Notes under the pieces: model-generated
Databases searched by the model: none
What the model saw: the letters and a program-made list of their open reading frames with translations, nothing else
Told to the model about the DNA's origin: nothing
Translations under genes and position numbers: made by a program
DNA from: Nostoc punctiforme PCC 73102
GTDB taxonomy: Bacteria > Cyanobacteriota > Cyanobacteriia > Cyanobacteriales > Nostocaceae
DNA: 32,000 bases
Direction: 5' to 3'
Assembly: GCF_000020025.1 (NCBI RefSeq)
Contig: NC_010628.1
Span: 3,930,001 to 3,962,000 of the forward strand
Part shown: positions 1 through 29,445 of the stretch, one piece after another
Layout: the number at the start of each line of letters is the position of its first letter
Position numbering within the stretch: the first letter of the stretch is position 1

Positions 1-1
1 A

Positions 2-1009
2 CTGTTAGAAGTAAGTTGGGAAGCTTTAGAAAATGCGGCTATTGCACCACAGAATCTTGTAGGAAGTCAGACAGGTGTGTTCATTGGTCTGATTTCCAAC
101 GAGTATATGCAACTGCAAATTCAGCACAAAGACCCAGAAAAAATTGATGCTTATTACGGTACAGGCGGTATTGGTAGTGCAGCGGCAGGGAGGATATCTC
201 ATAGCTTGGGGCTGCGCGGGCCTAGCTTGGTAGTGGATACTGCTTGCTCGTCCTCGCTGGTTAGCATTCATTTAGCAGTTCAAAGCCTGCGACGTGGAGA
301 GTGCAATTTAGCATTAGCGGGTGGCGTAAACTTGATACTTCTGCCGGAGACGAATATTTTCTTATCAAAATCCAAGGCTGTAGCTGCCGATGGACGCTGT
401 AAAACCTTTGATGCTTCAGCTAATGGCTTTGTTCGAGGAGAGGGATGTGGTGTAGTTGTATTGAAACGACTCTCTGAAGCTTTAGCTGATAATGACCCAA
501 TCTTGGCTGTAATTCGGGGTTCAGCAGTGAATCATGATGGACGTAGCAGTGGTTTTACCGTCCCCAGTACAACAGCGCAACAAGAATTGTTACATCAAGC
601 ATTAGCTAACGCCAATGTAGAAGCCCAGCAGGTGAGTTATATCGAAGCTCATGGGACTGGCACATCCTTGGGAGATCCGATTGAGGTTGGTGCATTAGCA
701 TCTGTACTCTGTGCAGGACGTTCTTTTGAACAGCCACTAGTAATTAGTTCCGTTAAAACTAACATTGGTCATTTGGAAGCAGCGGCTGGGGTAGCGGGTT
801 TGATGAAGGTTGTTTTGGCTCTACAGCATCAAGAAATTCCGCCACACTTGCACTTGCAACAACCTAATCCGATGATTGCTTGGGAGCAATTGCCATTGAG
901 TGTCCCTACATCTGGGCAATCTTGGGTAGTTAAGGACTCGGCGCGGATTGGTGGGGTGAGTTCTTTTGGGATGAGTGGTACTAATGCTCATGTGATTGTG
1001 CAGGAAGCA
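2..1009 (+). other. Module 1 KS domain (partial)
   Basis: [36 protein letters not shown]. Confidence 0.85.
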
Positions 1010-4000
1010 CCTTTGGGGGGAGCAGGAGAGCAGGGGAACAGGGGAGCAGAAATTACAATTGAGCGTCCTTTACACTTACTCTGCCTTTCTGCTAAACATT
1101 CCAATTCCTTGCGACAATTAGCTGAACAATACATCGACTATTTGGGCAAGCATGGCGATATTTCTTTGGCTAATATTACCTACACTGCCCAAGTCGGACG
1201 TTCTCATTTTTCTCATCGTTTGGCTGTTATTGCCTCATCTCATGCCGAGATGCAAGCAAAGCTGGAGGAAGCAGAGTATGACTATCAAGTAGATAGTGGA
1301 AATTTCACCAGATGCGCCTTTTTATTTACTGGGCAAGGGTCGCAGTATGTAGGGATGGGAAGACAACTGTATGAAACCCAACCTGGTTTTCGTCGGATAT
1401 TAGATGAATGCGATCGCATTCTCCAACTTTTCCTCAACAAATCCATCCTATCAGTCATCTTTGCTGACACCACAGAAAATCCACTCCTCGACCAAACTGC
1501 CTACACTCAACCAGCTTTATTTGTCTTAGAATACGCCTTGGCGCAACTGTGGATTTCTTGGGGTATCCGTCCCTCTGCGGTGCTTGGCCACAGTGTCGGA
1601 GAATATGTGGCTGCTTGTGTGGCTGGTATTTTCTCCCTTGAGGACGGATTGAAATTGATTGCCCACCGCGCCCGCCTGATGCAGGCATTACCGCAAACAG
1701 GAGGTATGGCTGCGGTTTTCGCCAGCGCAGAAGTTGTAGAACCCTTGATTGCATCCTATCCTCAACAACTCAGTATTGCTGCGTATAACGGAGAACAAAG
1801 TTTAGTTATCTCAGGCGAGATGCAGGCATTAACAGCAGTTTTGCAAAAACTAGAAAGTCAAAGCATCGAAACGCGAATTTTGCAAGTATCTCACGCCTTC
1901 CACTCGCCGTTAATGGCATCAATGTTGGCAGAGTTTGAGCAAGTTGCCCAGCAAATTGCCTATCATTCCCCACAACTGGAAATCGTTTCTAATGTTAGTG
2001 GGAAGTTGACAAATAATGCAGAGATGTCTAATGCTAGTTATTGGGTAGAGCATATCCAAGCCAGTGTCTATTTTGCTCAAGGGATGTCAGCACTTTATTC
2101 CGCAGGCTACAAAGTATTTTTAGAAGTCGGTTCTCATCCCACTTTAATCGGTATGGCACAACGAGATTATCCAGAAGAGTTGGATAATCAAGGTTTATGG
2201 CTAGCTTCGCTACGCAAAGGCAAGGAAGATTGGCAACAAATTTTAGAAAGTTTGAGCCAGTTATATCTCCAAGGAGTAGAAATTGATTGGCTCGGATTCG
2301 AGAACGGCTATACACGAAATAAAGTAATATTACCCAACTATCCTTGGCAGCATCAACGCTATTGGTTTGAAACCACTACCAAAAAACTAGTAGTACACTC
2401 ACAATTGCATCCCCTGTTAGGTCAACGCCTACATTCTCCACTGTTCAAGAGTTTAGTATTTGAGAGCGAATTCCACACAGATAATTTACCCTTTCTAGCC
2501 GATCATCGTATCTACGGGTCGATAGTTGCACCGGGAGCATCTTATATTGCTATGTTGACCCTAGCAGGTAGGCAGATTTTCGGAACTAATGCAGTGTCTC
2601 TTCAACAGATTACGTTTCGAGAGCCTTTAATTATACCTGAAGATGGCAGTATCAAAGTGCAATTGATTTTGCAACTGGGCAAGAATCAGGATTATAGTTT
2701 TGAACTATTCAGCTTAGAGGGTAATGAGCAGTGGTGTCTCCATGCAACTGGTGAGTTATCTACCTTGTATACTACGAGAGAAACTTGCTCTTGGACAGAA
2801 ATACAAGCGCGTTGTCCTGAAAAATCCACTGGTTTGCAGGTATTTTATCAGGATGTCGGAGATACTGGGCTAGATTTGGGTGTAACTTTTCAATGGATTG
2901 GTGATTTCTGGCGACGAGATGGGGAAGCTATTTGTCAGATGCAAGTACCACCAGGTTGTGAAACAGAGACTAAGTTATATCCATTACATCCGGGGCTGAT
3001 AGATTCTTGTTTGCGGCTGTTAGGAGGTACTTTACCAGCAGAGATTCGAGACGCTGATGTTTATGTACCGATTAGTTTAGGTGGCTTTCATCTTTGGCAA
3101 AATCTGGACTTGAGTCAGCCATTATGGTGTCACGCCCGCCTGCAAAGCAATAATCCAGAGATGATAGTAGGAGATGTACAATTATTAGATGAATCTGGAC
3201 AAGCGATCGCTCAATTCTCGGAACTCTGTTTAAAGCGATCGCCACAGCAAGCATTACTCAAGCAACCAAATCTCCAAGACTGGCTTTATCAAATCACTTG
3301 GCAACTCCAAGGACGAACAATTACGCAATCATCTTTAGTAGCACAACAGCAATATTGGATACTTCTAATTGATGAAGATGCTGTAGGTACAGAATTGGCA
3401 AAATTGTTTCAAGCTAAAGGTGAATCCTGTGTGGCAGTCATCCCTAGTTATACTTACCAATCTTTAGAACAAGGTAAAATTTACATTAATCCAGCTGAAC
3501 CCCAGCATTTCGACCGACTGCTTCAAGAAGTCTCAATTCAACCAGGAATAGCTCTCCACATTGTACATTTGTGGAGTTTGGCTACTGGAGATTTGCTAGA
3601 TTCTACACAAATGCGTATCTGTGGTAGTGTTTTACATTTAACTCAAGCCTTAGCTCGGATAAATTTCCCACTAGCTAGGCTGTGGTTGATTTCTAGGGGT
3701 AGCCAGTCAATTAATCTACAATCTGAAATCGCCCTGTCTCAAACACCTCTCTGGGGATTGGGGCGAGTTATAGCAACAGAATATAGCGAAGTTTTTGCAG
3801 GGCTAATTGATTTAGATCCCCAAAGTTCAACTGTAGAAGCTGCAACTCAGTTGTGGGCAGAATTTTCCCATCCAGAATTGGGCGAACAAGTCGCCTTACG
3901 GGGAAATCAGCGCTACGTCTCCCGTTTGCAACGCGTTCCCAACACCATAGATTTCTCTGCTTCCTTTAACCCTTCCCTTGGGACTTACCTGATTACAGGC

Positions 4001-5179
4001 GGACTAGGAGGACTGGGGTTAACAGTGGCGAATTGGTTGGTTGAGCGAGGTGTGCAACACTTAGTATTAGTGGGTAGGCGATCACCATCTGATAAAGCGA
4101 AAAGTGCGATCGCCTCCTGGGAAAACGCTGGCGTGCAAGTTACAGTCACCCAAGCAGATATTACACAACTTGAACAAATACAAAAAATACTTGAGGGCAT
4201 TGAACCTCAGTTTCCCTTACGAGGTGTTATCCATGCAGCCGGAATTCTAGACGATGGGATTTTACTCCAACAAAACTGGGAGCGATTTACTAGGGTAATG
4301 GCTCCGAAATTACAGGGTGCTTGGAATCTGCATATCCTGACTCAAGATAAACCTTTGGAATTATTTGTCTTGTTCTCCTCCGTTGCTTCTGTGTTGGGAA
4401 CCACAGGACAAGCAAACTACGCAGCAGCAAACGCCTTTCTTGATGGGTTAGCCGATTATCGTCGCTTTCAAGGGCTGGCGGGATTAAGTATCAACTGGGG
4501 GGCGTGGGCGGAAGTGGGAATGGCTGCAACCTCTACAGGTTCTCCAGTGGGAGTAGAGAAAATTTTACCCCAACAAGGATTACAAATCTTGGCAGCATTG
4601 ACGCATCAAGCCAATGCTAGACAAGTTGCGGTTTTACCAGTGCGCTGGTCAAAATTTATCGCCCATTACTACACCCAAAAAGTGCCGCCTTTGCTGAGTG
4701 AGTTTGTTGATTCAAGGCAAACCCAAGAGACTGCACAGCCAGTATTAGCAGCGAAACCATATATTTTACGACAACTCCAGGAGGCTCACACCGCAGATAT
4801 TCAGCAAATTTTATTTAATTACATCCGTGACGAAGTAGCAAAAATCTTACGGTTCAATTCATCTGAGGAACTGCAACTGCGTCAGCGTTTATTTGAAGTG
4901 GGGTTAGATTCACTCATGGCAATCGAGTTGAGAAATCGTTTGCAATCAAGTCTAGAGTGTTCGCTGCCAACCACCTTGTTATTTGATTATCCCACCTTAG
5001 AAACCTTAACTAAATATCTTACTAATGATGTTTTGGATGTGAAAACGGCATCTCCACCGCCAAAAAGCGATCACCCTGACACCGAAATCAGCGATATTCA
5101 ACAGCTTTCGCAAACAGAACTAGAGCGATCGCTAGCGGCAGAATTAGCCAGCATTGACGAATTAATGAAAAAAATCTAA
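2..5179 (+). CDS. Type I modular polyketide synthase, 5'-partial (module 1 of window: KS-AT-DH-KR-ACP + C-terminal docking helices)
   Basis: The frame is open from nt 2 ([17 protein letters not shown]...), with no stop before the GTG at 77 used by the ORF track, so the gene starts upstream of the window. KS: Cys in DTACSSS (TGC 245-247), [19 protein letters not shown]: GHSVGE (Ser AGT 1592-1594) plus HAFH. DH: HxxxGxxxxP (His CAT 2504-2506). KR: TGGLGGLG, LDD, S/Y/N. ACP: GLDSL (Ser TCA 4910-4912). Confidence 0.95.
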   Translation: MLEVSWEALENAAIAPQNLVGSQTGVFIGLISNEYMQLQIQHKDPEKIDAYYGTGGIGSAAAGRISHSLGLRGPSLVVDTACSSSLVSIHLAVQSLRRGECNLALAGGVNLILLPETNIFLSKSKAVAADGRCKTFDASANGFVRGEGCGVVVLKRLSEALADNDPILAVIRGSAVNHDGRSSGFTVPSTTAQQELLHQALANANVEAQQVSYIEAHGTGTSLGDPIEVGALASVLCAGRSFEQPLVISSVKTNIGHLEAAAGVAGLMKVVLALQHQEIPPHLHLQQPNPMIAWEQLPLSVPTSGQSWVVKDSARIGGVSSFGMSGTNAHVIVQEAPLGGAGEQGNRGAEITIERPLHLLCLSAKHSNSLRQLAEQYIDYLGKHGDISLANITYTAQVGRSHFSHRLAVIASSHAEMQAKLEEAEYDYQVDSGNFTRCAFLFTGQGSQYVGMGRQLYETQPGFRRILDECDRILQLFLNKSILSVIFADTTENPLLDQTAYTQPALFVLEYALAQLWISWGIRPSAVLGHSVGEYVAACVAGIFSLEDGLKLIAHRARLMQALPQTGGMAAVFASAEVVEPLIASYPQQLSIAAYNGEQSLVISGEMQALTAVLQKLESQSIETRILQVSHAFHSPLMASMLAEFEQVAQQIAYHSPQLEIVSNVSGKLTNNAEMSNASYWVEHIQASVYFAQGMSALYSAGYKVFLEVGSHPTLIGMAQRDYPEELDNQGLWLASLRKGKEDWQQILESLSQLYLQGVEIDWLGFENGYTRNKVILPNYPWQHQRYWFETTTKKLVVHSQLHPLLGQRLHSPLFKSLVFESEFHTDNLPFLADHRIYGSIVAPGASYIAMLTLAGRQIFGTNAVSLQQITFREPLIIPEDGSIKVQLILQLGKNQDYSFELFSLEGNEQWCLHATGELSTLYTTRETCSWTEIQARCPEKSTGLQVFYQDVGDTGLDLGVTFQWIGDFWRRDGEAICQMQVPPGCETETKLYPLHPGLIDSCLRLLGGTLPAEIRDADVYVPISLGGFHLWQNLDLSQPLWCHARLQSNNPEMIVGDVQLLDESGQAIAQFSELCLKRSPQQALLKQPNLQDWLYQITWQLQGRTITQSSLVAQQQYWILLIDEDAVGTELAKLFQAKGESCVAVIPSYTYQSLEQGKIYINPAEPQHFDRLLQEVSIQPGIALHIVHLWSLATGDLLDSTQMRICGSVLHLTQALARINFPLARLWLISRGSQSINLQSEIALSQTPLWGLGRVIATEYSEVFAGLIDLDPQSSTVEAATQLWAEFSHPELGEQVALRGNQRYVSRLQRVPNTIDFSASFNPSLGTYLITGGLGGLGLTVANWLVERGVQHLVLVGRRSPSDKAKSAIASWENAGVQVTVTQADITQLEQIQKILEGIEPQFPLRGVIHAAGILDDGILLQQNWERFTRVMAPKLQGAWNLHILTQDKPLELFVLFSSVASVLGTTGQANYAAANAFLDGLADYRRFQGLAGLSINWGAWAEVGMAATSTGSPVGVEKILPQQGLQILAALTHQANARQVAVLPVRWSKFIAHYYTQKVPPLLSEFVDSRQTQETAQPVLAAKPYILRQLQEAHTADIQQILFNYIRDEVAKILRFNSSEELQLRQRLFEVGLDSLMAIELRNRLQSSLECSLPTTLLFDYPTLETLTKYLTNDVLDVKTASPPPKSDHPDTEISDIQQLSQTELERSLAAELASIDELMKKI
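1015..1049 (+). repeat. Same octamer repeat family in the KS-AT linker of module 1 (degenerate, about 4 units)
   Basis: ggggggagcaggagagcaggggaacaggggagcag, encoding [12 protein letters not shown]. Confidence 0.75.
1316..2281 (+). other. Module 1 AT domain (malonyl-type motifs)
   Basis: [26 protein letters not shown]. Confidence 0.85.
2402..3241 (+). other. Module 1 DH domain
   Basis: HPLLG, LADHRIYGSIVAPG. The DxxxQ position reads DSCLR (3002-3016). Confidence 0.8.
3278..4516 (+). other. Module 1 KR domain (structural + catalytic subdomains, B-type)
   Basis: [25 protein letters not shown]...GQANYAAAN. Confidence 0.8.
4796..5029 (+). other. Module 1 ACP
   Basis: LFEVGLDSLMAIELRNRL. Confidence 0.85.
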
Positions 5180-5217
5180 TCCCAATCAACAAGATATTTA
5201 GCGACAAGGTTCATAGC

Positions 5218-8200: not shown

Positions 8201-9900
8201 TAGTTTTCTCAGGCGATTGCACTCACTTTGAGCAACTGCTAGACGGTATCCCAACTCAGTTACCATTGCAGATTTTACATCTGTGGAGTTTGGATAATAC
8301 TAAAGAGGCAGATTTAATGTTGACAAATATTCAAAACCATGTTTCTGCTGTATTGCATCTCATCCAAGCACTAGCCAGTCGCCAGGAGTCGATATCGGCG
8401 CGGTTGTGGTTGGTAACAGAAGGGACGCAGGTAATTGGAGAACATTCTGGGGAAATTGCGATCGCTGCTGCACCATTATGGGGTTTGGGTGGAGCGATCG
8501 CGATGGAATACCCCGAAATCTGGGGAGGTTTGATGGATCTCGACCCCAGCAGTTCACCAGCTGATACTGCGGCTTTATTACTGGCAAAACTGCCAACCAT
8601 GATTTTAGGCGATCGCATTGCTTGGCGACATCAACAGTGGCATACTGCGCGTTTGGTGCGTAGTCAAATTTCACCAGTAGCCGCCAAATCCCTCAAATTC
8701 ACCCCAGAGGTAACATACTTAATTGCTGGCGGACTAGGTGCTTTGGGTTTGCAAATTGCCCGTTGGTGTGTGGAACAGGGTGCAAGATATTTAGTATTAC
8801 TCGGTCGAAGTTCTCCAAGTGAAAGCGCTCAAGCAACAATTCGAGAGTTAGAACAAACAGGTACGCAAATAACAGTAGTACAGGCAGATATTGCCCAAGC
8901 CGAACAGTTGCAGCCAGCACTGACGGCACTGCTAACAAACCATCCCCCATTGCGCGGCATTATCCATGCAGCAGGTGTTCTAGATGATGGGATGCTGCTA
9001 CAACAAAACTGGGAACGGTTTGCTAAGGTGATGGCTCCTAAAATCCAAGGTGCGTGGAATCTGCACACTTTGACACTGGATCAACCCCTAGATTTCTTCG
9101 TACTGTTTTCATCAACAGCCTGCATACTCGGTGCGCCCGGTCAAAGCAACTATGCTGCTGCCAATGCCTTTTTAGATGCTTTAGCACATTACCGCCAAAA
9201 ACAAGGATTAGGCGCTACCAGTATCAACTGGGGGCCGTGGGCAGAGGTCGGGATGGCAGCATCATTCGGTCAAAGGTTAGCGGCAGAGGGTATTGATTTG
9301 ATTCCACCAAACCAAGCCTTGCAGTTACTCAAACATTTCCTGCAACAGAGAGTTTGTCAGGTGACTGTACTCCCCATCAACTGGACGCAGTTTTTACAAC
9401 GCTTTCCTACAGGGCAACAACCTGCTTACTTTCGGGAATTGTTTTCGGATGGACAACAGCAAGAAAACCAGCCATCCGAACTACAACAACGCCTACAAGC
9501 AACACCTGTTAACGAATGGAAATCTCTGTTAGTTGCTCACATTAGCGATGAACTTACCAGCATCTTAGGCTTGATCTCATCCCAAACCATCGACCCCCTA
9601 CAAGGATTTGCAACGATGGGCATGGATTCACTCACGTCAGTGGAATTTCGGAATCGCCTACAAAAAAGTTTAGGTAAATCGTTGCCTTCAACACTGACAT
9701 TTAATTATCCCAACATCGATACATTAGCAAGTTATTTTGTCAATACCCTAGATAACCAAAATATGCCGCCTGAAACCAAACCAACATTAGTTAATCCCAG
9801 TCAATCTATGACGGTGACACAAATCAAACAACTCTCAGAAGAACAGGTCGAATCAATGATTGATGAAGAATTAGCTTCCCTGATTGAATTTAGTCATTAG
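5218..9900 (+). CDS. Type I modular polyketide synthase (module 2: docking-KS-AT-KR-ACP-docking; no DH)
   Basis: 1560-aa ORF. KS Cys in DTACSSS (5839-5841), [25 protein letters not shown] (Ser AGC 7213-7215) plus HAFH. The AT-KR linker runs straight into the KR structural subdomain. [24 protein letters not shown] (Ser 9628-9630). Confidence 0.95.
5326..6603 (+). other. Module 2 KS domain
   Basis: [39 protein letters not shown]. Confidence 0.85.
6609..6653 (+). repeat. Same octamer repeat family in the KS-AT linker of module 2 (about 4 units)
   Basis: ggaggaggcagggggagcaggggaacaggggaacaggggagaagaa, encoding [15 protein letters not shown]. Confidence 0.8.
6901..7923 (+). repeat. 1023-bp tract, copy A, nucleotide-identical to 11651-12673
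   Basis: I compared the two tracts line by line at a constant offset of 4750 nt and saw no mismatch. The track's identical antisense mini-ORFs (6999-7196 = 11749-11946; 7685-7867 = 12435-12617) independently show the identity. Confidence 0.9.
6937..7902 (+). other. Module 2 AT domain (malonyl-type motifs)
   Basis: [26 protein letters not shown]. Lies inside the 1023-bp tract identical to module 3. Confidence 0.85.
8050..9252 (+). other. Module 2 KR domain (B-type)
   Basis: [25 protein letters not shown]...GQSNYAAAN. Confidence 0.8.
9511..9747 (+). other. Module 2 ACP
   Basis: [18 protein letters not shown]. Confidence 0.85.
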
Positions 9901-9924: not shown

Positions 9925-9943
9925 CTCTGTTCTGTAAAGCAAA

Positions 9944-18500: not shown

Positions 18501-21143
18501 GGTGCAGGTAAACATACCCTAGAAGTTTTGCACTTTCAACAAGGTCTATTCATTCCCGAAGCAGAAACTCAGACTGTACAAATTTGCTTGCAACCAGGAA
18601 ACACACCAGACACTCTCAACTTTGATTGTTACAGCCGTCTTAGTATAAACCCAGAGACTAAATGGCGGCATCATGCCAGTGGTACGGTGTGCCGAGGTGA
18701 CGGGGAAATCACACCCACCATTCCCGTAACGGTGGCAGAAATTCAAGCCCGTTGTCAGGAAGTTATCTCTGGCACACAGCACTATCAACAAATGGCAGAA
18801 CAAGGTTTGCTTTATGGAGCCAGCTTTCAAGGCGTAGAGCAAATCTGGCGACGAGAAGGGGAAGCCCTCGGTCGCATCCACCTACCAGCATCTTTACACG
18901 CAGAAATCGCCAACTACCAAATTCATCCCGTTATTTTGGATGCCTGTTTTCAGGTAATAGCTTTGGCGACTCCCTTAGCTAACCCTGATGCTGAGGCAGA
19001 AGGAGCTTATTTGCCAGTACGTCTAGACAAACTCCGACTTTATCAGCAACCGGATGCCACAGGTTTGTGGGCACACTTGCAGTTAAAACCTGTAGTAGAA
19101 ACAGATGCCTTTGCTGCTGAGTTAGTCCTATTCAACGACCAAGGACAACGGATATTAGATGCTGAATGCTTGCGTATTCAGAAACTTGATAGTCAAAGTG
19201 AAAATAATTCTAGCGATTGGTTCTATGAGATTAGCTGGGAAAGACTTTTAAGACAGACAGACAGGGAGACGGAAGGACACAGCGAACAAAATCAAGGCTA
19301 TTGGCTGATATTGACAGACAGACAGGGAATTGGAGAGAATCTCAGCCAACAATTGCAGCAGCAAGGCGGAAATTGCATCTTAGCTTTTGCAGGTGAAACT
19401 TATCAGAAACAGGATTCACAGCATTATCAAATTCAGCCAAATTGTTTAGATGACTTCAAGCAACTCCTACAAACTGTTTCTAGTGAATGCTTGGGAATAG
19501 TGCATCTGTGGAGTTTAGATATCACTCCAGCAGAATTGACTACCCTAGCTTCACTAACTGGTGACGACAATATGGGAGATCGTCCACTTGGCGATCGCAA
19601 TTTGGGGTGTATCAGCACTCTTCATTTAGTCCAAGCATTGGCAGAAACAGGTTGGCAAAATACACCCCGTCTCTGGCTAGTTACCCGTGGCGCACAGCCT
19701 GTAGATTCGAATCTTAGTATTGCCCAATCGCCTCTATGGGGACTGGGACGCGTCATTGCTCAAGAACATCCAGACTGGCGTTGCTCAATGGTGGATTTGG
19801 CACCAGTACCTGAACCATCAGAAATTCCATCACTTTTACAGCTACTACAAGCAGACGATGTGGAAAATCAAATCGCTCTGCGTGGGGATGTGTCCTACGT
19901 TGCCAGACTGAAGCGATATTTACCCAGTTATTCAGAACTACCAAACTTCCACCCCCAAGCAACCTACCTCATTGCGGGAGGTCTGCGGGGTCTGGGTTTA
20001 CAAGTAGCTACTTGGATGGTGGAGAGGGGAGCTAGATATTTGGCATTGATGGCGAGAAGTCAGCTGACACCTGAAACCTTAGAAGTTTTACAAACTCTGG
20101 AAACTGCTGGAGCAAAAATTAAGGTGCTTCAGGCGGATATCAGCCAGGCTGAGGAAGTAGCTAAAGCGATCACTCAATTAGACCAAGATATGCCACCATT
20201 ACGGGGTGTAATTCACAGCGCTGCTGTTTTGGATGACGGCATTCTCTTACAATTAACCCCAGAAAGGTTGCACAAAGTCATGCAACCCAAGATAGAAGGA
20301 GCATGGAATCTCCACACACACACCCTCAACAAACCCCTAGATTTCTTTGTGCTGTTTTCTTCAGCTGCTTCACTCCTGGGTTCTGCCGGACAAGGAAACT
20401 ATGCGGCGGCCAATGCCTTTTTAGATGGGTTAGCTCATTATCGGCAAAGCCAAAATCTGCCTGCACTCAGTATCAACTGGGGTGCGTGGGCAGAAATAGG
20501 TTTAGCAGCAGCCCAGACAAATCGGGGCGATCGCATGGCATCTCTGGGTTTTAGTAGCATTCTCCCACAGCAAGGCTTAGATATTTTAGGACACCTGCTA
20601 ACGGATAAAACCGCACAATTAGGTGTGATTCCCATCAATTGGGCAAAAGTCTTACGTGCTAATCCAGCCGTTATCAAGATGCCTTTGTTTCAATTGCTGA
20701 CAGAGGTCTTTAGTAGCTCTGGAGAAATCGATACTGACAAAAGCACAAATTTTCTTTCCCGTCAAGCACTTTTAGCAACTCCATTAGATGAGCGTCAACT
20801 ACTTTTGGAAACCTACTTCCACGAACAAGTGGCTAGGGTGCTGCGAATGCCAGCCTCGAAACTCGATCGCCATCAGCCCCTCAACAGCCAAGGACTAGAT
20901 TCTTTAGTGGCGGTGGAGTTAAAGAACAAACTTAAAAACGACTTGGGCATTGATTTACCGATGATTCGCTTCATTCAAGGCCCTAGTATTGCCCAGTTAT
21001 CTGCACAAGTACTCACTCAAATTACACAGGAAATGTCATCAGTATCATCTGTCCTTGTATCTCCTCCTCATCTGAGGAGCAATTCTGCTAGACCTGTTGA
21101 ATTAGCCACCAGTAATCAAGAATGGGAGGATGGCGAACTATGA
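15552..21143 (+). CDS. Type I modular polyketide synthase (module 4: docking-KS-AT-DH-KR-ACP + acidic C-terminal tail)
   Basis: 1863-aa ORF. The ATG at 15552 overlaps the end of the upstream gene (stop TGA 15560-15562); an in-frame alternative ATG lies at 15564. KS Cys TGT 16176-16178. AT GHSLGE (Ser AGT 17517-17519) with [19 protein letters not shown] (His CAT 18423-18425) and DACFQ. KR LDD, K/S/Y/N. ACP GLDSL (Ser TCT 20901-20903). Clearly more diverged from modules 1-3 than they are from each other. Confidence 0.93.
15672..16940 (+). other. Module 4 KS domain
   Basis: [39 protein letters not shown]. Confidence 0.85.
17244..18206 (+). other. Module 4 AT domain (divergent; GHSLGE + YAFH)
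   Basis: [32 protein letters not shown]. Confidence 0.8.
18321..19187 (+). other. Module 4 DH domain
   Basis: [34 protein letters not shown]. Confidence 0.8.
19221..20501 (+). other. Module 4 KR domain (B-type)
   Basis: [25 protein letters not shown]...GQGNYAAAN. Confidence 0.78.
20784..21017 (+). other. Module 4 ACP
   Basis: [18 protein letters not shown]. Confidence 0.85.
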
Positions 21144-24100
21144 GCGCGAGTCAACTTCTGGATGATTTGACGCAAAATGGAGTGTATTTGTGGGCTGAAG
21201 GCGACAAATTGCGTTTTCGTGCCCCCAAAGGTGTGTTAACGGAAGAACTGCGCGATCGCTTGACTGCTCACAAGCTAGAATTGCTGGCAATTTTGCAAAC
21301 GCCCGTGCCAACGGCAGAATTCACCCTAGTTCATGCTCCAGAGGAACGTTATCAGCCATTCCCGCTCACTGACTTACAACAAGCTTATGCTTTGGGTGGT
21401 AGTGATTTTTTCGATTTGGGTAACGTGTCTGCTCATTTCTACGTAGAATTTGCCGTTACTAATCTTGACATCGAGCGATTGAATTTGGCTTGGCAACGTT
21501 TAATTGAGCGTCATGAGATGCTACGAGCAGTAATTTTACCGGATGCCCAACAGCAGATTCTCGAAACTGTGCCTCCCTTTGCTGTGGAAGTCATCGACTT
21601 ACGGGGTCAAAAAGAGGCGGAGGAGCAAATAGCAGCGATGCGCCAGCAAATGAAGGATAATGGCCCGTCACTCGATAAATATCCTTTATTTGAGGTGCGG
21701 GTACAGTTATTGGATGAGGAGCGATGTCTAGCGACAAGACGCTTCGCGTCTACGCAACTCCACATCAGCATTAGTTTATTAATCTGCGATGCTTTAAGTG
21801 GTGGGTTTGTCTTCCAAGATTTATATCAGTTTTACCTCAATCCCCAAGCACAGTTACCAGCCCTGAATCTCTCTTTCCGAGATTACATTCTGACGCTGAA
21901 TCAACGCCGTCAAACAGCAGCCTACCAAAAAGCCCGTGATTACTGGTGGCCAAGGTTATCTGAAATTCCCCCAGCCCCGGAATTGCCCCTAGCCAAAAGT
22001 CCAAGTGCTATTGAGAAACCCACTTTTACCCGTTGGCAAGGGCAACTAGCACCAGCAGTTTGGCAGCAATTCAAAACACGAGTCAGTCAGCTGGGACTAA
22101 CACCGGCGGCTGCGATTTGTGCTGCTTATGCCACCATCCTCACCACTTGGAGCAAAAACCAAAAACTCACAGTTAACATCCTCTACTTTAACCGCGAACC
22201 ATTGCATCCACAGGTGTATCAGGTTTTAGGTAACTGTAGTTCTACCCTACTGCTGACAGTTGATCACACCCAAAGCGAAAGCTTCGCCGCCCAAGCCAAA
22301 CGCTTACAAGAGCAGTTGTGGAGTGATTTGGAACATACGGCGGTGACTGGTGTGGAGGTATTGGGCGAACTCAATCGGATGCAAGGGGGAACTGCTAGAG
22401 CTGCAATGCCTTGTACTTTTGCTAGTGCTTTGGGTTTGGGAAACCGTGACACTCAAACTAATGCTGCGGGTGAGCAGGATTGGCAGGTAATTTGTAACGG
22501 CTTGTTGCAAACGCCTTTCGTCCTCCTCGACCACCAAATTGTTGAAGAAAACGGCGCTTTGCTCCTGAATTGGGATGCTGTAGAAGAAGCTTTTCCCCCT
22601 AATTTAATGGCCCAAATGTTTGATGCTTACCAACTGCTATTGCATCGTTTGGCTGAGTCAGACAATACTTGGCAGACTACCACAGAATGGTTAGTACCTA
22701 AAGCACAACTACAACAACGAGCAGCCGTCAATGCTACCAAAACTACCATTTCCACCCAGTTGTTGCATGAGTTGTTTGTTGAACAAGCGACTCAACACCC
22801 AGAAAAATTAGCGATCGCTGCTTCTCAATTGACTTTGACTTACGCCGAACTCGATCACCTATCTAACTACATTGGTAGACAACTGCGAGACTTAGGCGCT
22901 CGTCCCAATCAGTTGGTAGCCGTGGTGATGGAAAAAGGTTGGGAGCAGTTAGTCGCTGTTTTGGGAATTCTCAAATCAGGTGCAGCTTACTTACCAATCG
23001 ACCCCAGCCTACCCCAAGAACGTCTTAACTGGCTGCTGGATAACGCTGAAGTAGCGATCGCTTTTACCCAACCTCGGCTAGAAGTAAATCTCAGCTTCGC
23101 GACTCAAGTCAAATGGCTAACAATTGATGACTCAACCCTGGTACAAGCCTCTACCAGTCAACCTTTACCATCAATACAAACCCCAGAAGATTTAGCCTAC
23201 GTCATCTACACCTCCGGCTCAACCGGCATACCCAAAGGTGTCACCATTGACCATCGCGGTGCAGCTAACACCATCCTCGATATTAATCAACGGTTTGGCA
23301 TGACAGCAGAGGATCGGGTATTTGCTATTTCCTCCTTGAGCTTTGACTTGTCAGTGTATGACATATTCGGAACGCTCGCAGCTGGTGGTACAATTATCAT
23401 GCCCGATGCTCAAGGCAGCCGCGATCCGGCGCATTGGCTGGATGTTCTCCAACGGGAGCAGGTGACAGTCTGGAACTCTGCACCAGCGTTAATGAAATTG
23501 TTAGTCGAATATGCAGGCGATCGCTGCGATCGCTTATCGTCTTCCATACGGTTGGTGATGATGAGTGGCGATTGGATTCCGGTAACTCTACCGGAGCAAA
23601 TTCACTCCTTGGGTAACGATGTCCAAGTAATCAGTTTGGGAGGAGCTACGGAAGCTTCCATCTGGTCAATTTTCTATCCTATCGAGGCAGTTGACCCTAG
23701 CTGGACTAGCATCCCCTACGGTAAACCCCTGAGTAACCAAAGCATCCACATCCTTGATGAAGCCTTGCAACCCCGTCCTGATTGGGTTCCAGGACAAATT
23801 TACATCGGTGGTGTCGGTTTAGCTCAGGGATATTGGCGAGATGCAGCCAAAACCCAAGCCAGCTTTATTCAGCATCCCCGCACGGGAGAGCGTCTTTACT
23901 GCACAGGGGACTTGGGACGCTATCTGCCGGATGGTAACATCGAGTTTTTAGGAAGAATTGATTTTCAGGTTAAAATTCGCGGTTATCGAATAGAAATAGG
24001 CGAAATTGAAACTGTCTTGCAGCAACACCCAGCCATCCGTTCTGTTGCTGTTTCAGCCGTTGGCGAACAACGGGATGACAAGCAATTGGTAGCTTATATC

Positions 24101-25345
24101 GTTTTTGAGCAGGAACAATCAATTACTTCATTAGAATTGCGTAGCTACCTCCAGCAGAAGTTACCAGAATACATGATTCCCTCAATGTTCATGTTTATGG
24201 ACAGCTTGCCCTTGTCATCCAACGGTAAAGTCGATCGCCGTGCTTTACCTGACCCAGAACCAAGTCAAGCAGATTTAGAGGCAATTGTCGCACCCAGAGA
24301 CAGCTTAGAGTTACAACTTGTACAAATTTGGCAAGAAATCTTGAAATTGCCGGAGGTAGGTATTACTAATAATTTCTTTGAACTGGGTGGAACTTCTATT
24401 CAAGCTGTGCGCTTGATGACGCAAATTCACAAACTGTTTGCTCAGAATTTGCCCTTGTCTACGTTGTTCCAAGGTGGGACTGTTGAGCATTTAGCGCGGA
24501 CTCTGCGGGAATCGTCAGATAGTTCAGTGCCTTGGTCGCCTTTAGTCAGTATCCAGCCCTCTGGTTCTCAGCCGCCTTTCTTCTGCGTTCATCCAGCTGG
24601 TGGTAATGTGCTTTGCTATATGGATCTCTCCCGTCGCTTGGGTGCAGATCAGCCGTTCTACGGTCTTCAGGCTGTGGGCATGGATGGAGAACAACCACCG
24701 TTCACCACTATCGAAGATATGGCAACTGATTATATTGCCGCCATCCGCACCGTTCAACCACAAGGGCCATACTCTATCGGTGGCTGGTCTTTCGGGGGAA
24801 TTGCAGCCTTGGAAATTGCCCAGCAATTGCGCCAGCAAGGTCAAGAAGTCAATATGCTGGTACTTATCGACTGTCCCGCACCCTTATCTGGCGAAGATTT
24901 GGACGAAGCTACCTTAGCAGCTTGGTTTATCCAAGACTTAGAAGGTCGATTTGATCTTGATGCTACTAGATTGCAGCAGTTACAGCAACTAGATACCGCA
25001 CAACAGTTGAATTACATCCTAGAACAAGCCAGACTACTGCACTTAGTTCCGCCAGATGCTGGAGTTGAACAAGTCAACTATTTGTTCGAGGTGTTCAAAT
25101 GCAATATGCGAGCGATCGAATCCTACACACCGCGTCTCTACGAGGGGCTAGCAACACTGCTGCGGGCAGAAAACCAACCACTAGAAAATCCCACCAACCC
25201 AGCTTTAGATTGGCACAAATTACTCACCAATTTGGAAGTGCGTTGGATTCCAGGCAACCACTACACGATGGTCAGAGAACCAGATGTGCAAACATTGGCA
25301 ACCCAATTGAGGGCTTGTCTGGCAGTTATGAACAACTGGAAATAG
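21140..25345 (+). CDS. NRPS termination module (TubC-N-type docking domain, Cy-like condensation, A(Cys), PCP, TE)
   Basis: The ORF track starts at 21122. I prefer the in-frame ATG at 21140, which forms an ATGA overlap with the PKS stop (TGA 21141-21143). Motifs: [13 protein letters not shown] (Cy-type C1); A3 [16 protein letters not shown]; A4 [10 protein letters not shown]; [13 protein letters not shown]; NGKVDR; [14 protein letters not shown] (Ser TCT 24395-24397); TE GWSFGG (Ser TCT 24788-24790), LIDCPAP, PGNHYTM. Confidence 0.93.
21143..21295 (+). other. TubC-N-type (beta-hairpin) N-terminal docking domain of the NRPS
   Basis: [52 protein letters not shown]. Recognised from the L..L...GV.LW.EGD.LR.RAP.G.L...L...L..HK.ELL..L pattern. 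Confidence 0.75.
21347..22666 (+). other. Cy-type (heterocyclisation-family) condensation domain, variant active-site signature
   Basis: [59 protein letters not shown]. The signature window reads [15 protein letters not shown] (a single Asp). Confidence 0.8.
22754..24241 (+). other. Adenylation domain, predicted cysteine-specific
   Basis: Specificity residues read by eye against GrsA numbering: D742 L743 Y746 N785 M813 S815 L839 I847 W848 K1036, giving DLYNMSLIWK. That is one position from the canonical Cys code DLYNLSLIWK. Confidence 0.8.
24293..24505 (+). other. PCP (thiolation) domain
   Basis: [18 protein letters not shown], Ser at 24395-24397. Confidence 0.85.
24569..25321 (+). other. 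Thioesterase domain
   Basis: [34 protein letters not shown] (Ser/Asp/His). Confidence 0.85.
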
Positions 25346-29396: not shown

Positions 29397-29445
29397 ATAA
29401 CTCTCTCATCTGGTTAGATACAATGCAGTATGCAATTTTTTGAGA

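What the first reader, a model, noticed from the sequence alone, without database searches (positions are those of the whole stretch)
1..25345. Apparently orphan cis-AT PKS/NRPS line ending in a cysteine module: predicted unbranched hydroxy-polyenoyl-cysteine (thiazoline) lipid
Seen in sequence: four consecutive same-strand PKS ORFs (the first truncated by the window) carry complete catalytic motifs. They are followed by an NRPS ORF whose ATG overlaps the last PKS stop (ATGA at 21140-21143). Domain strings are [..KS-AT-DH-KR-ACP][KS-AT-KR-ACP][KS-AT-DH-KR-ACP][KS-AT-DH-KR-ACP][dd-Cy-A-PCP-TE]. There is no ER, MT or Ox domain anywhere. ATs 1-3 carry GHSVGE + HAFH (malonyl-type). All four KRs carry the LxD (LDD/LSD) B-type signature. 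By established colinearity rules, the last eight chain carbons should read -CH=CH-CH(OH)-CH2-CH=CH-CH=CH-C(O)-, with E olefins and a D-carbinol. This chain would be joined to cysteine as an amide or thiazoline and released by the TE. Inference: from memory I cannot place this architecture on any characterised cyanobacterial pathway. Its pairing with a membrane ICMT-type methyltransferase and a DevBC-type exporter suggests a dedicated exported lipid. The loading module and any earlier modules lie upstream of the window.
Basis: partly seen in the sequence, partly recalled or inferred. Interest (0 to 1): 0.8.

Follow-up and report, generated by a model that had tools for sequence, protein, structure and literature searches.

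The report
Orphan Nostoc polyketide–cysteine lipid gene cluster
The window holds the back half of a large, intact and still product-less polyketide/peptide gene cluster of the model cyanobacterium Nostoc punctiforme; it should make a methyl-branched, hydroxylated polyene capped with cysteine, then methylate and export it, which makes it a genuine but fairly ordinary orphan pathway.

Summary
Four co-directional cis-AT PKS genes and a docking-Cy-A(Cys)-PCP-TE NRPS lie where stated, with the stated motifs. A PEMT/ICMT-type methyltransferase and DevB/DevC follow.

The window is Nostoc punctiforme PCC 73102, with a 100% match to a 2850-aa N. punctiforme PKS. The cluster recurs in at least 10 Nostoc-type strains.

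About 29 kb of cluster lies upstream:
- an HMG-CoA-synthase/ECH/ECH/ACP beta-branching cassette;
- a reduction-less KS-AT-ACP module and a KS-AT0 didomain;
- two or three further modules;
- a PDH-like E1/E2 + ACP set;
- in orthologues, an AprA-MT1-type C-methyltransferase.

So "unbranched" and "no MT" fail for the whole pathway.

Thiazoline formation is also uncertain. The Cy domain belongs to a TE-terminal clade that lacks both the first Asp of DxxxxD and the Thr equivalent to BmdB T1196.

The NRPS + ICMT-like MT (+ DevBC) unit is conserved across several otherwise different clusters, which supports methylation and export of the released product.

No paper in the searchable library assigns a product. 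The locus is probably the published "pks2", but that is unproven.

Verdict: a real orphan BGC and a new member of a known kind, of moderate interest.

The parts
2..5179 (+). C-terminal 1725 aa of a 2850-aa bimodular PKS: (KS, cut by the window edge)-AT-DH-KR-ACP. The missing N-terminus is KS-AT-ACP plus the start of this KS.
   Evidence: Pfam. 100% identity over 100% of the query to N. punctiforme protein P0121. The N-terminal half was read from L002. Motifs GHSVGE/HAFH, HxxxGxxxxP and LDD.
5218..9900 (+). PKS module KS-AT-KR-ACP. It has no DH and should leave a beta-hydroxyl.
   Evidence: Pfam. KR carries LDD. AT carries GHSVGE/HAFH.
9944..15562 (+). PKS module KS-AT-DH-KR-ACP
   Evidence: Pfam. 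The DH motif is [10 protein letters not shown] (Gly replaced by Asp) with the DxxxQ Asp present. KR carries LSD.
15552..21143 (+). PKS module KS-AT-DH-KR-ACP with a divergent AT (GHSLGE/YAFH)
   Evidence: Pfam (this AT scores 281 bits against about 206 for the other three). Motifs.
21122..25345 (+). Terminal NRPS: TubC-type docking domain, Cy-type condensation domain (non-canonical), Cys-specific A domain, PCP, TE. The alternative start is the ATG at 21140, which overlaps the PKS stop codon.
   Evidence: Pfam. Best solved relative is EpoB Cy, 355 bits. Specificity code DLYNMSLIWK. GWSFG and GNH TE motifs, SLLICDALS and PCTFAS. Start region.
21725..21751 (+). 27-nt in-frame insertion (9 aa, CLATRRFAS) just before the Cy core motif. 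It contains the hairpin AGACGC-TTC-GCGTCT.
   Evidence: Absent from the 96%-identical ATCC 53789 orthologue and from the 17 other aligned family members. It occurs once in the window.
25412..26095 (+). Membrane PEMT/ICMT-superfamily SAM methyltransferase, 227 aa
   Evidence: Pfam PEMT 46 bits and ICMT 34 bits, both above their cut-offs. Best PDB match is the 4A2N ICMT, E 2e-9. RHPLY motif and about four hydrophobic segments. A homologue lies immediately downstream of the NRPS in L001, L028, L030, L031 and L032.
26192..27514 (+). DevB-family membrane-fusion protein
   Evidence: NCBIfam TIGR02971, 321 bits against a cut-off of 129.
27711..28883 (+). DevC ABC-exporter permease. No DevA ATPase gene is adjacent.
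   Evidence: NCBIfam TIGR01185, 527 bits against a cut-off of 290. The remaining ORFs were scanned.
28947..29396 (-). SRPBCC (Polyketide_cyc2) protein. It could be a tailoring or lipid-binding protein; membership of the cluster is not established.
   Evidence: Pfam. The position is conserved in ATCC 53789.
29446..29985 (-). YdhR-type putative cofactor-free monooxygenase. Membership of the cluster is not established.
   Evidence: Pfam ydhR, E 4e-30. The position is conserved in ATCC 53789.
30013..30618 (+). TetR-family regulator, the likely downstream edge of the conserved block
   Evidence: Pfam and NCBIfam. The position is conserved in ATCC 53789.
31282..31965 (-). DDE transposase remnant. 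It marks the end of synteny with ATCC 53789, which has acyl-CoA dehydrogenase and GST genes at this position.
   Evidence: Pfam DDE_5 match covers only profile positions 196-267 of 272. Comparison with L001.

Best explanation
The window is the downstream half of one intact hybrid cis-AT PKS/NRPS cluster of about 58-63 kb on the Nostoc punctiforme PCC 73102 chromosome. It is probably the catalogued "pks2".

**Shown.** The gene order of the whole line is:
1. a stand-alone AprA-MT1-like C-methyltransferase (seen in orthologues only);
2. PKS KS-AT-KR-ACP;
3. an 83-aa ORF;
4. a type II TE;
5. a 76-aa ACP;
6. PDH-like E1alpha, E1beta and E2;
7. PKS KS-AT-DH-KR-ACP;
8. PKS KS-AT-KR-ACP-KS-AT0;
9. HMG-CoA synthase, ECH, ECH and an 87-aa ACP;
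10. PKS KS-AT-ACP-KS-AT-DH-KR-ACP (the window begins inside its second KS);
11. KS-AT-KR-ACP;
12. KS-AT-DH-KR-ACP;
13. KS-AT-DH-KR-ACP;
14. docking-Cy-A(Cys)-PCP-TE;
15. the ICMT/PEMT-type MT;
16. DevB and DevC.

**Inferred by colinearity and by the known chemistry of these families.**
- The E1/E2 set loads a short acyl starter onto its ACP.
- The reduction-less KS-AT-ACP module presents a beta-ketoacyl-ACP to the HCS cassette, which installs a beta-methyl-bearing olefin.
- The four window modules, with malonyl ATs and B-type KRs, then add E-ene, D-hydroxyl, E-ene and E-ene. This gives R-C(CH3)=CH-CH=CH-CH(OH)-CH2-CH=CH-CH=CH-CO-S-ACP.
- The docking domain recruits the NRPS, which condenses the chain with cysteine. 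It probably cyclodehydrates the product to a thiazoline; I put this at about 60:40, because N357 and D470 are kept while the first Asp and the T1196-equivalent Thr are lost.
- The TE hydrolyses the thioester.
- The membrane ICMT-type MT methylates the released lipid-cysteine acid, most likely on the carboxylate.
- A DevBC pump exports the product, using an ATPase and a TolC-like partner encoded elsewhere.
For: **Identity.** P0121 matches at 100%. The gene order HMGCS, ECH, ECH is consistent with the consecutive N. punctiforme accessions YP_001866566 to YP_001866568 listed in PMC4768178.

**Window domains and motifs.**

**Upstream genes in N. punctiforme's own reads.** L002 and L025. All reading frames are open.

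**Same architecture in other strains.** Nostoc sp. C110, DedVER02 and N. calcicola and ATCC 53789.

**Cy domain.** The best solved relative is EpoB Cy. The equivalents of EpoB N335/D449 and BmdB D1226 are invariant across 19 family members.

**Methyltransferase.** It has the ICMT fold and the RHPxY motif. A homologue lies immediately after the NRPS in the window and in 5 of the 7 other contexts examined; four of those five are different BGCs and the fifth is the ATCC 53789 orthologue.

**Exporter.** DevB and DevC score above their curated cut-offs. DevBC(A) recurs in L030 and L032.
Against: - There are no chemical or expression data here.
- The Cy domain lacks the first Asp of DxxxxD and the Thr aligned to BmdB T1196. 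It also carries a strain-specific 9-aa insertion next to the core motif.
- The HCS cassette has no Cys-to-Ser decarboxylating KS. Its neighbouring KS-AT has a dead AT (GGGVGE) and no ACP, so how the acetyl donor is made is unclear.
- No DevA ATPase gene is present.
- The MT scores below the NCBIfam isoprenylcysteine-MT cut-off, and its atom of attack (O or S) is untested.
- The order in which the upstream proteins act, the starter unit, and the presence of the MT1-like gene in PCC 73102 itself are all unverified.
- A gap of about 10-20 aa between contigs L025 and L002 was not read.
Confidence: 0.55

Rival explanations
1. The assembly line is the same, but the Cy-type domain only condenses. The product would be an open-chain N-(hydroxy-polyenoyl)-L-cysteine with a free thiol. 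The ICMT-family enzyme would then methylate it as eukaryotic ICMT methylates N-acylated, lipidated cysteine (on the carboxyl), or as MddA methylates a thiol (on sulfur).
For: - The Thr aligned to BmdB T1196 is Ala. By my recollection of Bloudoff et al. 2017 this Thr is needed for cyclodehydration but not for condensation. The mapping was checked by the 30-residue T-to-D spacing in 5T3E.
- The first Asp of DxxxxD is Ser.
- The two losses co-occur across the TE-terminal clade. Canonical D+T appears in 57 domains and about 17 domains have neither.
- The MT gives a weak NCBIfam match to the S-methyltransferase MddA.
- The MT is conserved next to this NRPS type.
Against: - N357 and D470, which are Cy-specific residues, are invariant across 19 members at 51-58% identity. 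That argues that heterocyclisation is still under selection.
- A Thr sits two residues upstream on the same strand (PVTFAS).
- No mutational data exist for this clade.
Confidence: 0.3
2. The TE releases the chain by macrolactonisation onto one of the chain hydroxyls rather than by hydrolysis, giving a thiazoline-containing macrolide. The MT would then act on another group.
For: At least two KR-only modules leave free hydroxyls. Type I TEs of hybrid lines often cyclise (general knowledge).
Against: - The tight and recurrent pairing of the TE-terminated NRPS with a carboxyl-MT-type enzyme across clusters with different chains fits a free acid better.
- E,E-diene geometry next to the ester disfavours small rings.
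Confidence: 0.08
3. The PCC 73102 copy is silent or crippled, a decaying cluster that makes no mature product.
For: - A 27-nt insertion lies beside the Cy core motif, and only in this strain.
- A transposase remnant lies at the downstream edge.
- No product is reported despite 20 years of work on this strain.
Against: - Every ORF examined is open and every catalytic motif is present.
- The insertion is in frame.
- The "orphan" BGCs pks2 and pks3 are reported as transcriptionally inducible in this strain (PMC9324945), provided this locus is one of them.
Confidence: 0.1
4. One reading: an unbranched hydroxy-polyenoyl-cysteine or thiazoline lipid with no methylation.
For: The window ORFs contain no MT domain, and ATs 1-3 are malonyl-type.
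Against: - The HCS/ECH/ECH/ACP cassette and a reduction-less KS-AT-ACP module lie directly upstream in the same operon-like array.
- Orthologues carry an AprA-MT1-type C-MT.
- A dedicated MT follows the NRPS.
Confidence: 0.03

Closest known systems
Epothilone EpoA/EpoB junction (Sorangium cellulosum)
   Same: A PKS hands its chain to an NRPS through a TubC-type N-terminal docking domain, followed by a Cy domain and a Cys-specific A domain. EpoB Cy is the best solved match (355 bits).
   Different: EpoB is an early, internal module with an Ox domain (giving a thiazole) and a canonical DxxxxD/Thr. Here the module is terminal, is fused to a TE, has no Ox domain, and has the non-canonical SxxxxD/Ala.
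Haliangicin (hli) cluster, Haliangium ochraceum
   Same: - It makes a polyene polyketide with an HCS beta-methyl cassette.
- Its HCS and both ECHs have this N. punctiforme locus's proteins as their top database hits (PMC4768178).
- It has a KS-AT didomain next to the HCS, and a bimodular PKS of about 2.9 k aa whose first module lacks reductive domains.
- Its terminal carboxyl is methyl-esterified; loss of hliD gives the free acids.
   Different: - It has no NRPS module and no sulfur.
- Release is by a metallo-beta-lactamase TE.
- Its carboxyl MT, HliD, is JerF-like. JerF is a class I soluble MT unrelated to the window MT.
Myxalamid (mxa) type polyene PKS with a single terminal NRPS module
   Same: Runs of KS-AT-DH-KR-ACP modules build a polyene that is finished by one amino-acid module. 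Several homologues carry the source name "myxalamid-type polyketide synthase".
   Different: Myxalamid uses Ala and reductive release (from my own knowledge). This line uses Cys, a Cy-type domain and a TE.
Curacin / jamaicamide pathways (marine cyanobacteria)
   Same: These are cyanobacterial cis-AT PKS/NRPS lines that combine an HCS cassette with a Cys/Cy module. CurL-type KS-AT linkers are found throughout.
   Different: In curacin the Cy module is internal. The cassette has a stand-alone Cys-to-Ser KS and tandem ACPs, and release is decarboxylative (from my own knowledge). None of these features is seen here.
Terminal Cy-A-PCP-TE modules of pyochelin (PchF) and barbamide (BarG)
   Same: They have the same terminal domain order and release a thiazoline/thiazole-carboxyl species. 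One family member is source-named "pyochelin synthetase".
   Different: Those modules follow NRPS modules and belong to siderophore or halogenated-peptide logic. No ICMT-type MT or DevBC is known to accompany them (from my own knowledge, not tested).
DevBCA / HgdBC heterocyst-glycolipid exporters of Nostocales
   Same: DevB and DevC are members of these families by curated HMMs. They are lipid exporters encoded beside PKS genes.
   Different: No DevA gene is present. The cargo here would be a polyketide-cysteine lipid, not a glycolipid, and no link to heterocysts is shown.
Isoprenylcysteine carboxyl methyltransferase (ICMT/Ste14)
   Same: It shares the same fold family, the RHPxY motif and a multi-pass membrane topology. 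The expected substrate is likewise a lipidated cysteine derivative with a free alpha-carboxylate.
   Different: It scores below the equivalog cut-off (69 against 160 bits). The lipid would be attached to N (or to C2 of a thiazoline), not to S. Activity is untested.

Membership tests
Modular cis-AT type I PKS | Each module has a KS with the Cys-His-His triad, an in-line AT with GHSxG, and an ACP with the DSL serine | tested here: met
   DTACSSS, HGTGT and NIGH, GHS(V/L)GE, and G(L/M)DS(L) are present in all four window modules. Pfam domains confirm the order.
Modular cis-AT type I PKS | The reductive-loop content matches the claimed domain strings: DH+KR, KR, DH+KR, DH+KR, and no ER | tested here: met
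   Pfam PS-DH/PKS_DH_N and KR hits, with no ADH_zinc_N/ER hit. The catalytic His and Asp of the DHs were checked.
NRPS heterocyclisation (Cy) module | DxxxxDxxS core motif in place of HHxxxDG | tested here: not met
   The motif is SLLICDALS, with the first Asp replaced by Ser. The same holds in 18 of 19 family members.
NRPS heterocyclisation (Cy) module | Cyclodehydration residues: the equivalents of BmdB T1196 and D1226, and of EpoB N335 and D449. The residue roles come from my own knowledge of the 2016/2017 PNAS papers, which are not held. | tested here: inconclusive
   D470 and N357 are present and invariant. The T1196 equivalent is Ala434 (PCTFAS against PVVFTS).
NRPS heterocyclisation (Cy) module | Overall sequence membership in the Cy clade rather than the LCL/DCL C-domain clades | tested here: met
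   The top eight PDB hits are all Cy domains or Cy-containing NRPSs (EpoB, Irp2, BmdB, HMWP2, 6lta and the dihydroaeruginoic acid synthetase 7emy), at 195-355 bits. Ordinary C domains score 44 bits or less.
Cys-activating A domain | Stachelhaus code DLYN(L/M)SLIWK | tested here: met
   DLYNMSLIWK, by alignment to GrsA-PheA. The ISLGGATE motif is also present.
Type I thioesterase | GxSxG nucleophile and catalytic His | tested here: met
   GWSFG and GNH are conserved in all 19 family members. Pfam Thioesterase, E 9e-32.
HCS beta-branching cassette | HMG-CoA-synthase homologue, two ECH-family enzymes and a discrete ACP, adjacent to a module that leaves a beta-keto group | tested here: met
   L002 encodes HMGCS (408 aa), ECH (269 aa), ECH (248 aa) and an ACP (87 aa), followed by KS-AT-ACP with no KR or DH. 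This lies outside the window, directly upstream.
HCS beta-branching cassette | A stand-alone decarboxylating KS with the active-site Cys replaced by Ser, and tandem acceptor ACPs | tested here: not met
   There is no such KS. Both neighbouring KSs keep the Cys (DTACSSS, DTGCSSS). The adjacent AT is dead (GGGVGE), and the acceptor ACP is single.
DevBCA-type tripartite ABC exporter | DevB membrane-fusion protein and DevC permease | tested here: met
   TIGR02971, 321 bits (cut-off 129). TIGR01185, 527 bits (cut-off 290).
DevBCA-type tripartite ABC exporter | A DevA ATPase encoded alongside, and a TolC-type outer-membrane partner | tested here: not met
   No ABC_tran ORF occurs in the window. The related locus L032 does carry one. 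The TolC partner cannot be tested from this window.
ICMT/PEMT membrane methyltransferase superfamily | Pfam PEMT/ICMT domain, the RHPxY SAM-site motif and a multi-pass membrane topology | tested here: met
   PEMT 46 bits (cut-off 25) and ICMT 34 bits (cut-off 24). RHPLY and about four hydrophobic segments. 4A2N match, E 2e-9.
Protein-S-isoprenylcysteine O-methyltransferase (equivalog) | A score above the NCBIfam NF040696 cut-off | tested here: not met
   68.8 bits against a cut-off of 160.
JerF/HliD-type polyketide carboxyl/enol O-methyltransferase | Sequence similarity to JerF | tested here: not met
   BLASTP against the JerF sequence printed in PMC6273487 finds no significant alignment (E 0.97).
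N. punctiforme "pks2" cluster (Liaimer et al. 2011) | Same locus tags or coordinates as the published pks2 | not testable with these tools
   The paper is not held. The indirect support is as follows. pks1, pks3 and pks4 are other loci. A review table lists pks2 as 62.7 kb, close to my estimate of 58-63 kb. The accession order places this locus between pks1 and pks3.
Any characterised BGC (MIBiG) | Gene-for-gene synteny with a cluster of known product | not testable with these tools
   MIBiG, antiSMASH and ClusterBlast are not available. Ten full-text searches found no product assignment.

The most novel reading that the evidence does not exclude
The cluster is the pks2 locus, whose exported product modulates hormogonium and heterocyst differentiation in N. 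punctiforme. That product would be a new structural class: a beta-branched hydroxy-polyene N-acyl-cysteine or thiazoline methyl ester. It would be released by a previously unrecognised, recurrent "finishing cassette" made of three parts:
- a TE-terminal Cy-type domain subtype lacking the first DxxxxD Asp and the T1196-equivalent Thr;
- a membrane ICMT-family methyltransferase acting on a small-molecule lipid-cysteine;
- a DevBC(A) pump.

This cassette is shared by several cyanobacterial BGC families with different chain-building logic.
Probability: 0.3. Interest if true: 0.6.

Novelty: new member of a known kind. Interest (0 to 1): 0.4.

Why it matters
N. punctiforme PCC 73102 is the genetic model for plant-cyanobacterium symbiosis, and its orphan PKS clusters are under active study. 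This analysis gives several things that can be used directly:

- **A mass-spectrometry target.** The corrected whole-cluster model predicts a beta-methyl branch, a PDH-like loading set, a possible in-trans C-methylation, a Cys cap that may or may not cyclise, and a methyl ester or S-methyl group. Together these predict one sulfur, a conjugated diene plus a methyl-diene chromophore, and +14 Da when the MT is present.
- **A cheap enzymology question.** The observation that TE-terminal Cy-type domains form a clade with correlated loss of two hallmark residues can be tested quickly: does this subtype still cyclodehydrate?
- **A possible new role for an enzyme family.** The recurrent pairing with an ICMT-family enzyme would extend that family to natural-product tailoring.
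- **A link to a known phenotype.** If the locus is pks2, the work would tie a structure to a published differentiation phenotype.

Tried and rejected
- **Exact look-up of the second PKS protein** found nothing on record. This is probably a start-codon difference and says nothing about the locus.
- **JerF/HliD analogy.** I recalled that the haliangicin carboxyl MT HliD and JerF might be ICMT-like. JerF's published sequence is a class I MT with no similarity to the window MT, so the analogy is rejected at the sequence level and kept only as a functional parallel.
- **The single genome-collection scan**, using the E2 protein, did not return N. punctiforme itself. The strain's own upstream region was recovered instead through a cluster-member look-up and Logan contigs.
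- **Literature.**
  - Searches for locus-tag prefixes Npun_R301-304 and Npun_F302-303 found nothing.
  - Liaimer 2011, Dehm 2019, Liaimer 2015, Guljamow 2017 and Bloudoff 2017 are not held.
  - The supplements of PMC9324945 are not held.
  - Calteau 2014 does not mention the strain or HCS.
  - The pks number therefore remains inferred.
- **Is the 27-nt insertion a dispersed repeat?** It has no second copy in the window or in the fetched loci. The 25-mer has no metagenome match. The 16-mer gives only chance-level hits in unrelated contigs. The result is uninformative.
- **Decarboxylative thiazole formation (barbamide-like) or an Ox-domain thiazole.** No Ox domain or candidate oxidase lies next to the NRPS, so I did not favour this.
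- **The repeat finder output** capped its reference copies at 300 nt and under-reported the AT duplication. I recomputed it directly.

Full report

Yes. The six-frame ORF list shows an open frame from base 2 to 5179, cut by the window edge. Further ORFs follow at 5218-9900, 9944-15562, 15552-21143 and 21122-25345, all on the + strand.

Pfam gives these domain orders:
- ORF 1: (partial KS)-AT-DH-KR-ACP
- ORF 2: KS-AT-KR-ACP
- ORF 3: KS-AT-DH-KR-ACP
- ORF 4: KS-AT-DH-KR-ACP
- ORF 5: TubC_N docking-Condensation-AMP-binding-PCP-Thioesterase

Domain E-values reach 1e-99. No ER, MT or Ox domain was found.

- KS Cys/His/His, and GHSVGE + HAFH in ATs 1-3.
- LDD, LDD, LSD and LDD in the four KRs.
- ATGA at 21140-21143, preceded by GGAGG at 21125-21129.

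An upstream in-frame ATG at 21122 is the start annotated in the ATCC 53789 orthologue. Either start is possible.

Aligning the A domain to GrsA-PheA gives the specificity code DLYNMSLIWK, the cysteine code (read by hand after correcting an off-by-one in my script).

AT4 is GHSLGE/YAFH and scores much higher against the general AT profile. DH3 has HxxxDxxxxP. KR4 has GGLRGLG.

**2. Where does the window come from?**

The truncated first PKS is 100% identical, over its whole length, to a 2850-aa type I PKS of Nostoc punctiforme on an 8.23-Mb contig. The NRPS is 96% identical to the orthologue in Nostoc sp. ATCC 53789. In that strain the same order of PKS, PKS, NRPS, ICMT/PEMT MT, DevB-like, DevC-like, SRPBCC(-), YdhR(-) and TetR is found.

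Orthologues of cluster genes at 82-95% identity occur in these strains:
- Nostoc spp. C110, C057, TCL240-02, FACHB-133, DedVER01b/02 and EkiNYC01
- N. calcicola FACHB-389/3891
- Desmonostoc muscorum FACHB-395
- a Trichormus MAG

**3. What lies upstream (outside the window)?**

Contigs assembled from N. punctiforme sequencing runs carry the following, directly upstream of the 2850-aa PKS:
- an HMG-CoA synthase (408 aa)
- two ECH-family proteins (269 and 248 aa)
- an 87-aa ACP

Before these lies the C-terminus of another PKS...KR-ACP-KS-AT. In that last AT the GHSxG nucleophile motif reads GGGVGE, and no ACP follows.

The missing N-terminal half of the window's first PKS is KS-AT-ACP with no reductive domains. 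It is therefore a module that leaves a beta-keto group, the normal substrate of an HCS cassette.

A table in the haliangicin paper lists N. punctiforme YP_001866566, YP_001866567 and YP_001866568 as the top database hits of the haliangicin HCS and its two ECHs (PMC4768178). Consecutive accession numbers are consistent with the HCS, ECH, ECH gene order seen here.

Further upstream, again in N. punctiforme reads, lie:
- the C-terminus of a PKS (...AT-KR-ACP)
- an 83-aa ORF
- a type II TE
- a 76-aa ACP
- E1alpha, E1beta and E2 of a 2-oxo-acid-dehydrogenase-like complex; E2 is ACC81620
- a KS-AT-DH-KR-ACP PKS
- the start of the KS-AT-KR-ACP-KS-AT0 PKS

All reading frames are open.

In Nostoc sp. 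DedVER02 and N. calcicola the first PKS is KS-AT-KR-ACP. It is preceded by a stand-alone protein of 516-570 aa with AprA N-terminal, winged-helix and MT domains. That protein's best solved relative is AprA methyltransferase 1, at E 1e-71. From my own knowledge, AprA MT1 is the iron-dependent malonyl-ACP C-methyltransferase.

The full line therefore has 8 or 9 KSs and spans roughly 58-63 kb. The word "unbranched" is contradicted.

**4. The cysteine module is not a textbook Cy module.**

By sequence it clearly belongs to the Cy clade. The top PDB hits are EpoB, Irp2, BmdB and HMWP2, plus two Cy-containing NRPSs (6lta and the dihydroaeruginoic acid synthetase 7emy), at 195-355 bits. Ordinary C domains score 44 bits or less.

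However, the core motif is SLLICDALS, not DxxxxDxxS. The motif aligned to PVVFTS is PCTFAS.

In the alignment to the BmdB Cy2 crystal sequence, the Thr of VFTS and the Asp of YLDN are 30 residues apart. This matches T1196 and D1226, the residues I recall from Bloudoff et al. 2017 as needed for cyclodehydration but not for condensation. That paper is not held, so this rests on my own knowledge.

The D1226 equivalent (D470) and the EpoB N335 equivalent (N357) are invariant in an alignment of 19 proteins of about 1400 aa with the docking-Cy-A-PCP-TE order. By contrast, 18 of the 19 lack both the first Asp and the Thr. The one member that keeps the Asp also keeps the Thr.

A crude motif scan of the top 120 homologues found canonical D+T in 57 Cy domains. 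The double deviation occurred in about 17 domains, almost all in TE-terminated proteins.

So this is a clade-wide subtype, not a lesion in one strain. I lean 60:40 towards a retained thiazoline-forming activity, because N357 and D470 are still conserved. An open-chain N-acyl-cysteine product is a serious rival.

Separately, the PCC 73102 allele alone carries a 27-nt in-frame insertion just before the core motif (21725-21751, encoding CLATRRFAS, with a 6-bp-stem hairpin).

**5. The downstream genes.**

*Methyltransferase.* The 227-aa protein matches Pfam PEMT and ICMT above their cut-offs. It has the RHPLY motif and about four hydrophobic segments. Its best solved relative is the Methanosarcina ICMT 4A2N, at E 2e-9. 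It falls below the NCBIfam equivalog cut-off for isoprenylcysteine MT, and it shows weak similarity to the lipid A phosphate O-MT LmtA and to the thiol S-MT MddA.

*Exporter.* DevB and DevC are members of their families by curated cut-offs. No DevA ATPase gene is present.

*Context of the NRPS family.* I examined the surroundings of six further family members at 52-58% identity:
- In four of them an ICMT/PEMT gene follows the NRPS immediately: Nodularia sp. UHCC 0506 and three metagenomic contigs.
- These four clusters otherwise differ from this one. Three carry an aromatic ammonia-lyase plus a CoA-ligase-type enzyme, with a halogenase or a glycosyltransferase; the fourth (L032) instead carries a type II TE and a full DevBCA set.
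- Two of the four also carry DevB/DevC, and one of those includes a DevA-like ATPase.
- The other two members (L029, L033) have neither gene.

This recurrent pairing is the best evidence that the MT acts on the released cysteine-capped product and that the DevBC pump exports it.

The SRPBCC, YdhR-like and TetR genes are conserved only in the very close ATCC 53789 genome. Their membership of the cluster is therefore open.

**6. How it most likely works.**

*Shown:* the gene and domain order above.

*Inferred from colinearity and from established rules (AT motif rules, the Caffrey LDD rule, HCS cassette chemistry):*
- The E1/E2 set makes an acyl-ACP. This is either a starter unit or, conceivably, the acetyl donor for the HCS, because no Cys-to-Ser decarboxylating KS is present.
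- The early modules add hydroxyl, ene and hydroxyl, possibly with an in-trans C-methylation.
- The KS-AT-ACP module and the HCS cassette install a beta-methyl olefin.
- The four window modules add E-ene, D-OH, E-ene and E-ene. This gives R-C(CH3)=CH-CH=CH-CH(OH)-CH2-CH=CH-CH=CH-CO-.
- The NRPS adds cysteine, as a thiazoline or as an amide.
- The TE hydrolyses the thioester.
- The ICMT-type MT methylates the product, on the carboxylate by analogy with ICMT. S-methylation is possible if the thiol is free.
- DevBC exports the product, using partners encoded elsewhere.

The role of the KS-AT0 didomain is unresolved. It may be the analogue of the haliangicin KS-AT protein HliL, which the authors assign to the branching cassette.

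**7. Comparison with what is known.**

The closest systems are listed in the closest-known section. No single one matches.

The literature I could search distinguishes the N. punctiforme clusters as follows:
- pks1 makes nostoclide and nostovalerolactone (PMC9324945).
- pks3 is ngl, making the nostochlorosides, at Npun_R3355-F3373 (PMC10849952).
- pks4 is Npun_R3425-3452 (PMC7660261).

None of these is this locus. pks2 is described as giving an exported product that affects differentiation, and one review table lists it as 62.7 kb. The size, the exporter genes and the accession order (between pks1 and pks3) make pks2 the likely identity. I could not read Liaimer et al. 2011, so this remains an inference, at about 0.6.

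Ten full-text searches found no product assigned to this locus, and a 2025 review lists none.

**8. Verdict.**

The Cys-terminated polyene line, the orphan status and the dedicated MT and exporter hold. "Unbranched" and "no MT" do not hold for the pathway as a whole, and thiazoline formation is uncertain.
- It is a new member of a known kind, a modular PKS/NRPS BGC in a well-studied strain.
- Two features are moderately interesting: the non-canonical TE-terminal Cy clade, and its recurrent pairing with an ICMT-family MT and a DevBC pump.
- Interest: 0.4.

Noticed in passing
window 6901-7923 and 11651-12673: A 1023-bp stretch covering the AT domains of the second and third PKS genes is exactly identical, and the flanks drop to about 80% and then to background. 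This looks like recent gene conversion between modules. It probably also explains why short-read assemblies of this strain break inside the PKS genes.
   Followed up: partly
window 21725-21751: A 27-nt in-frame insertion (TGTCTAGCGACAAGACGCTTCGCGTCT, with hairpin AGACGC-TTC-GCGTCT) sits in the Cy domain of PCC 73102 only. It is reminiscent of the small dispersed repeats described in Nostoc genomes (from my own knowledge), but no second copy was found in the window, the fetched loci or the metagenome scan.
   Followed up: partly
window 21122-22681 and proteins P0001-P0120: Loss of the first DxxxxD Asp and loss of the Thr of PVVFTS are correlated in Cy domains of TE-terminated docking-Cy-A-PCP-TE proteins (about 17 domains). 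Canonical D+T is found in 57 other Cy domains from the same search.
   Followed up: partly
window 26192-28883: DevB and DevC are present without a DevA ATPase gene. A related cluster (L032: 16014-18987) carries DevB, DevC and an ABC ATPase.
   Followed up: partly
L002:3-3956 (N. punctiforme, upstream of the window): The upstream PKS ends in a KS-AT didomain. Its AT has GGGVGE in place of GHSxG, and no ACP follows. It is fused directly before the HCS gene. The next KS-AT-ACP has unusual motifs (DTGCSSS, HGVGT, GYSLGE, QAFH). No Cys-to-Ser KS exists in the cassette.
   Followed up: partly
L025:3884-7212; L005:951-4279: A PDH-like E1alpha/E1beta/E2 set with its own 76-aa ACP and a type II TE is embedded between PKS genes. 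E2 homologues at about 33% identity occur in many Streptomyces genomes (L009-L024); I did not examine their contexts. The layout recalls the glycolyl-ACP-forming E1/E2/ACP systems of tetrahydroisoquinoline pathways (from my own knowledge).
   Followed up: no
L008:58-1770; L006:39-1589: A stand-alone homologue of AprA MT1 (6B39, E 1e-71) lies at the upstream end of the orthologous clusters. Its presence in PCC 73102 itself could not be checked, because contig L025 starts inside the next gene.
   Followed up: partly
L028, L030, L031: A second BGC family occurs in Nodularia sp. UHCC 0506 and in metagenomes. Its order is polyene-type PKSs, the same NRPS type, an ICMT/PEMT MT, a small ORF, an aromatic ammonia-lyase, a CoA-ligase-type enzyme and a halogenase or glycosyltransferase. 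This suggests aryl-primed polyene-cysteine products. No product is known to me.
   Followed up: no
window 28947-30618: An SRPBCC (Polyketide_cyc2) gene and a YdhR-type monooxygenase gene on the minus strand are divergent from a TetR gene. The arrangement is conserved in ATCC 53789. They could be tailoring enzymes and a regulator, or an unrelated unit.
   Followed up: no
window 31282-31965: A truncated DDE transposase ORF lies where ATCC 53789 has acyl-CoA dehydrogenase and GST genes. It marks the synteny break at the cluster edge.
   Followed up: partly
window 15552-21143: AT4 (GHSLGE/YAFH) is unlike the three other ATs. It resembles the ATs of the first upstream PKS and of the KS-AT-KR module. 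Its substrate is assumed to be malonyl, but this is not established.
   Followed up: no
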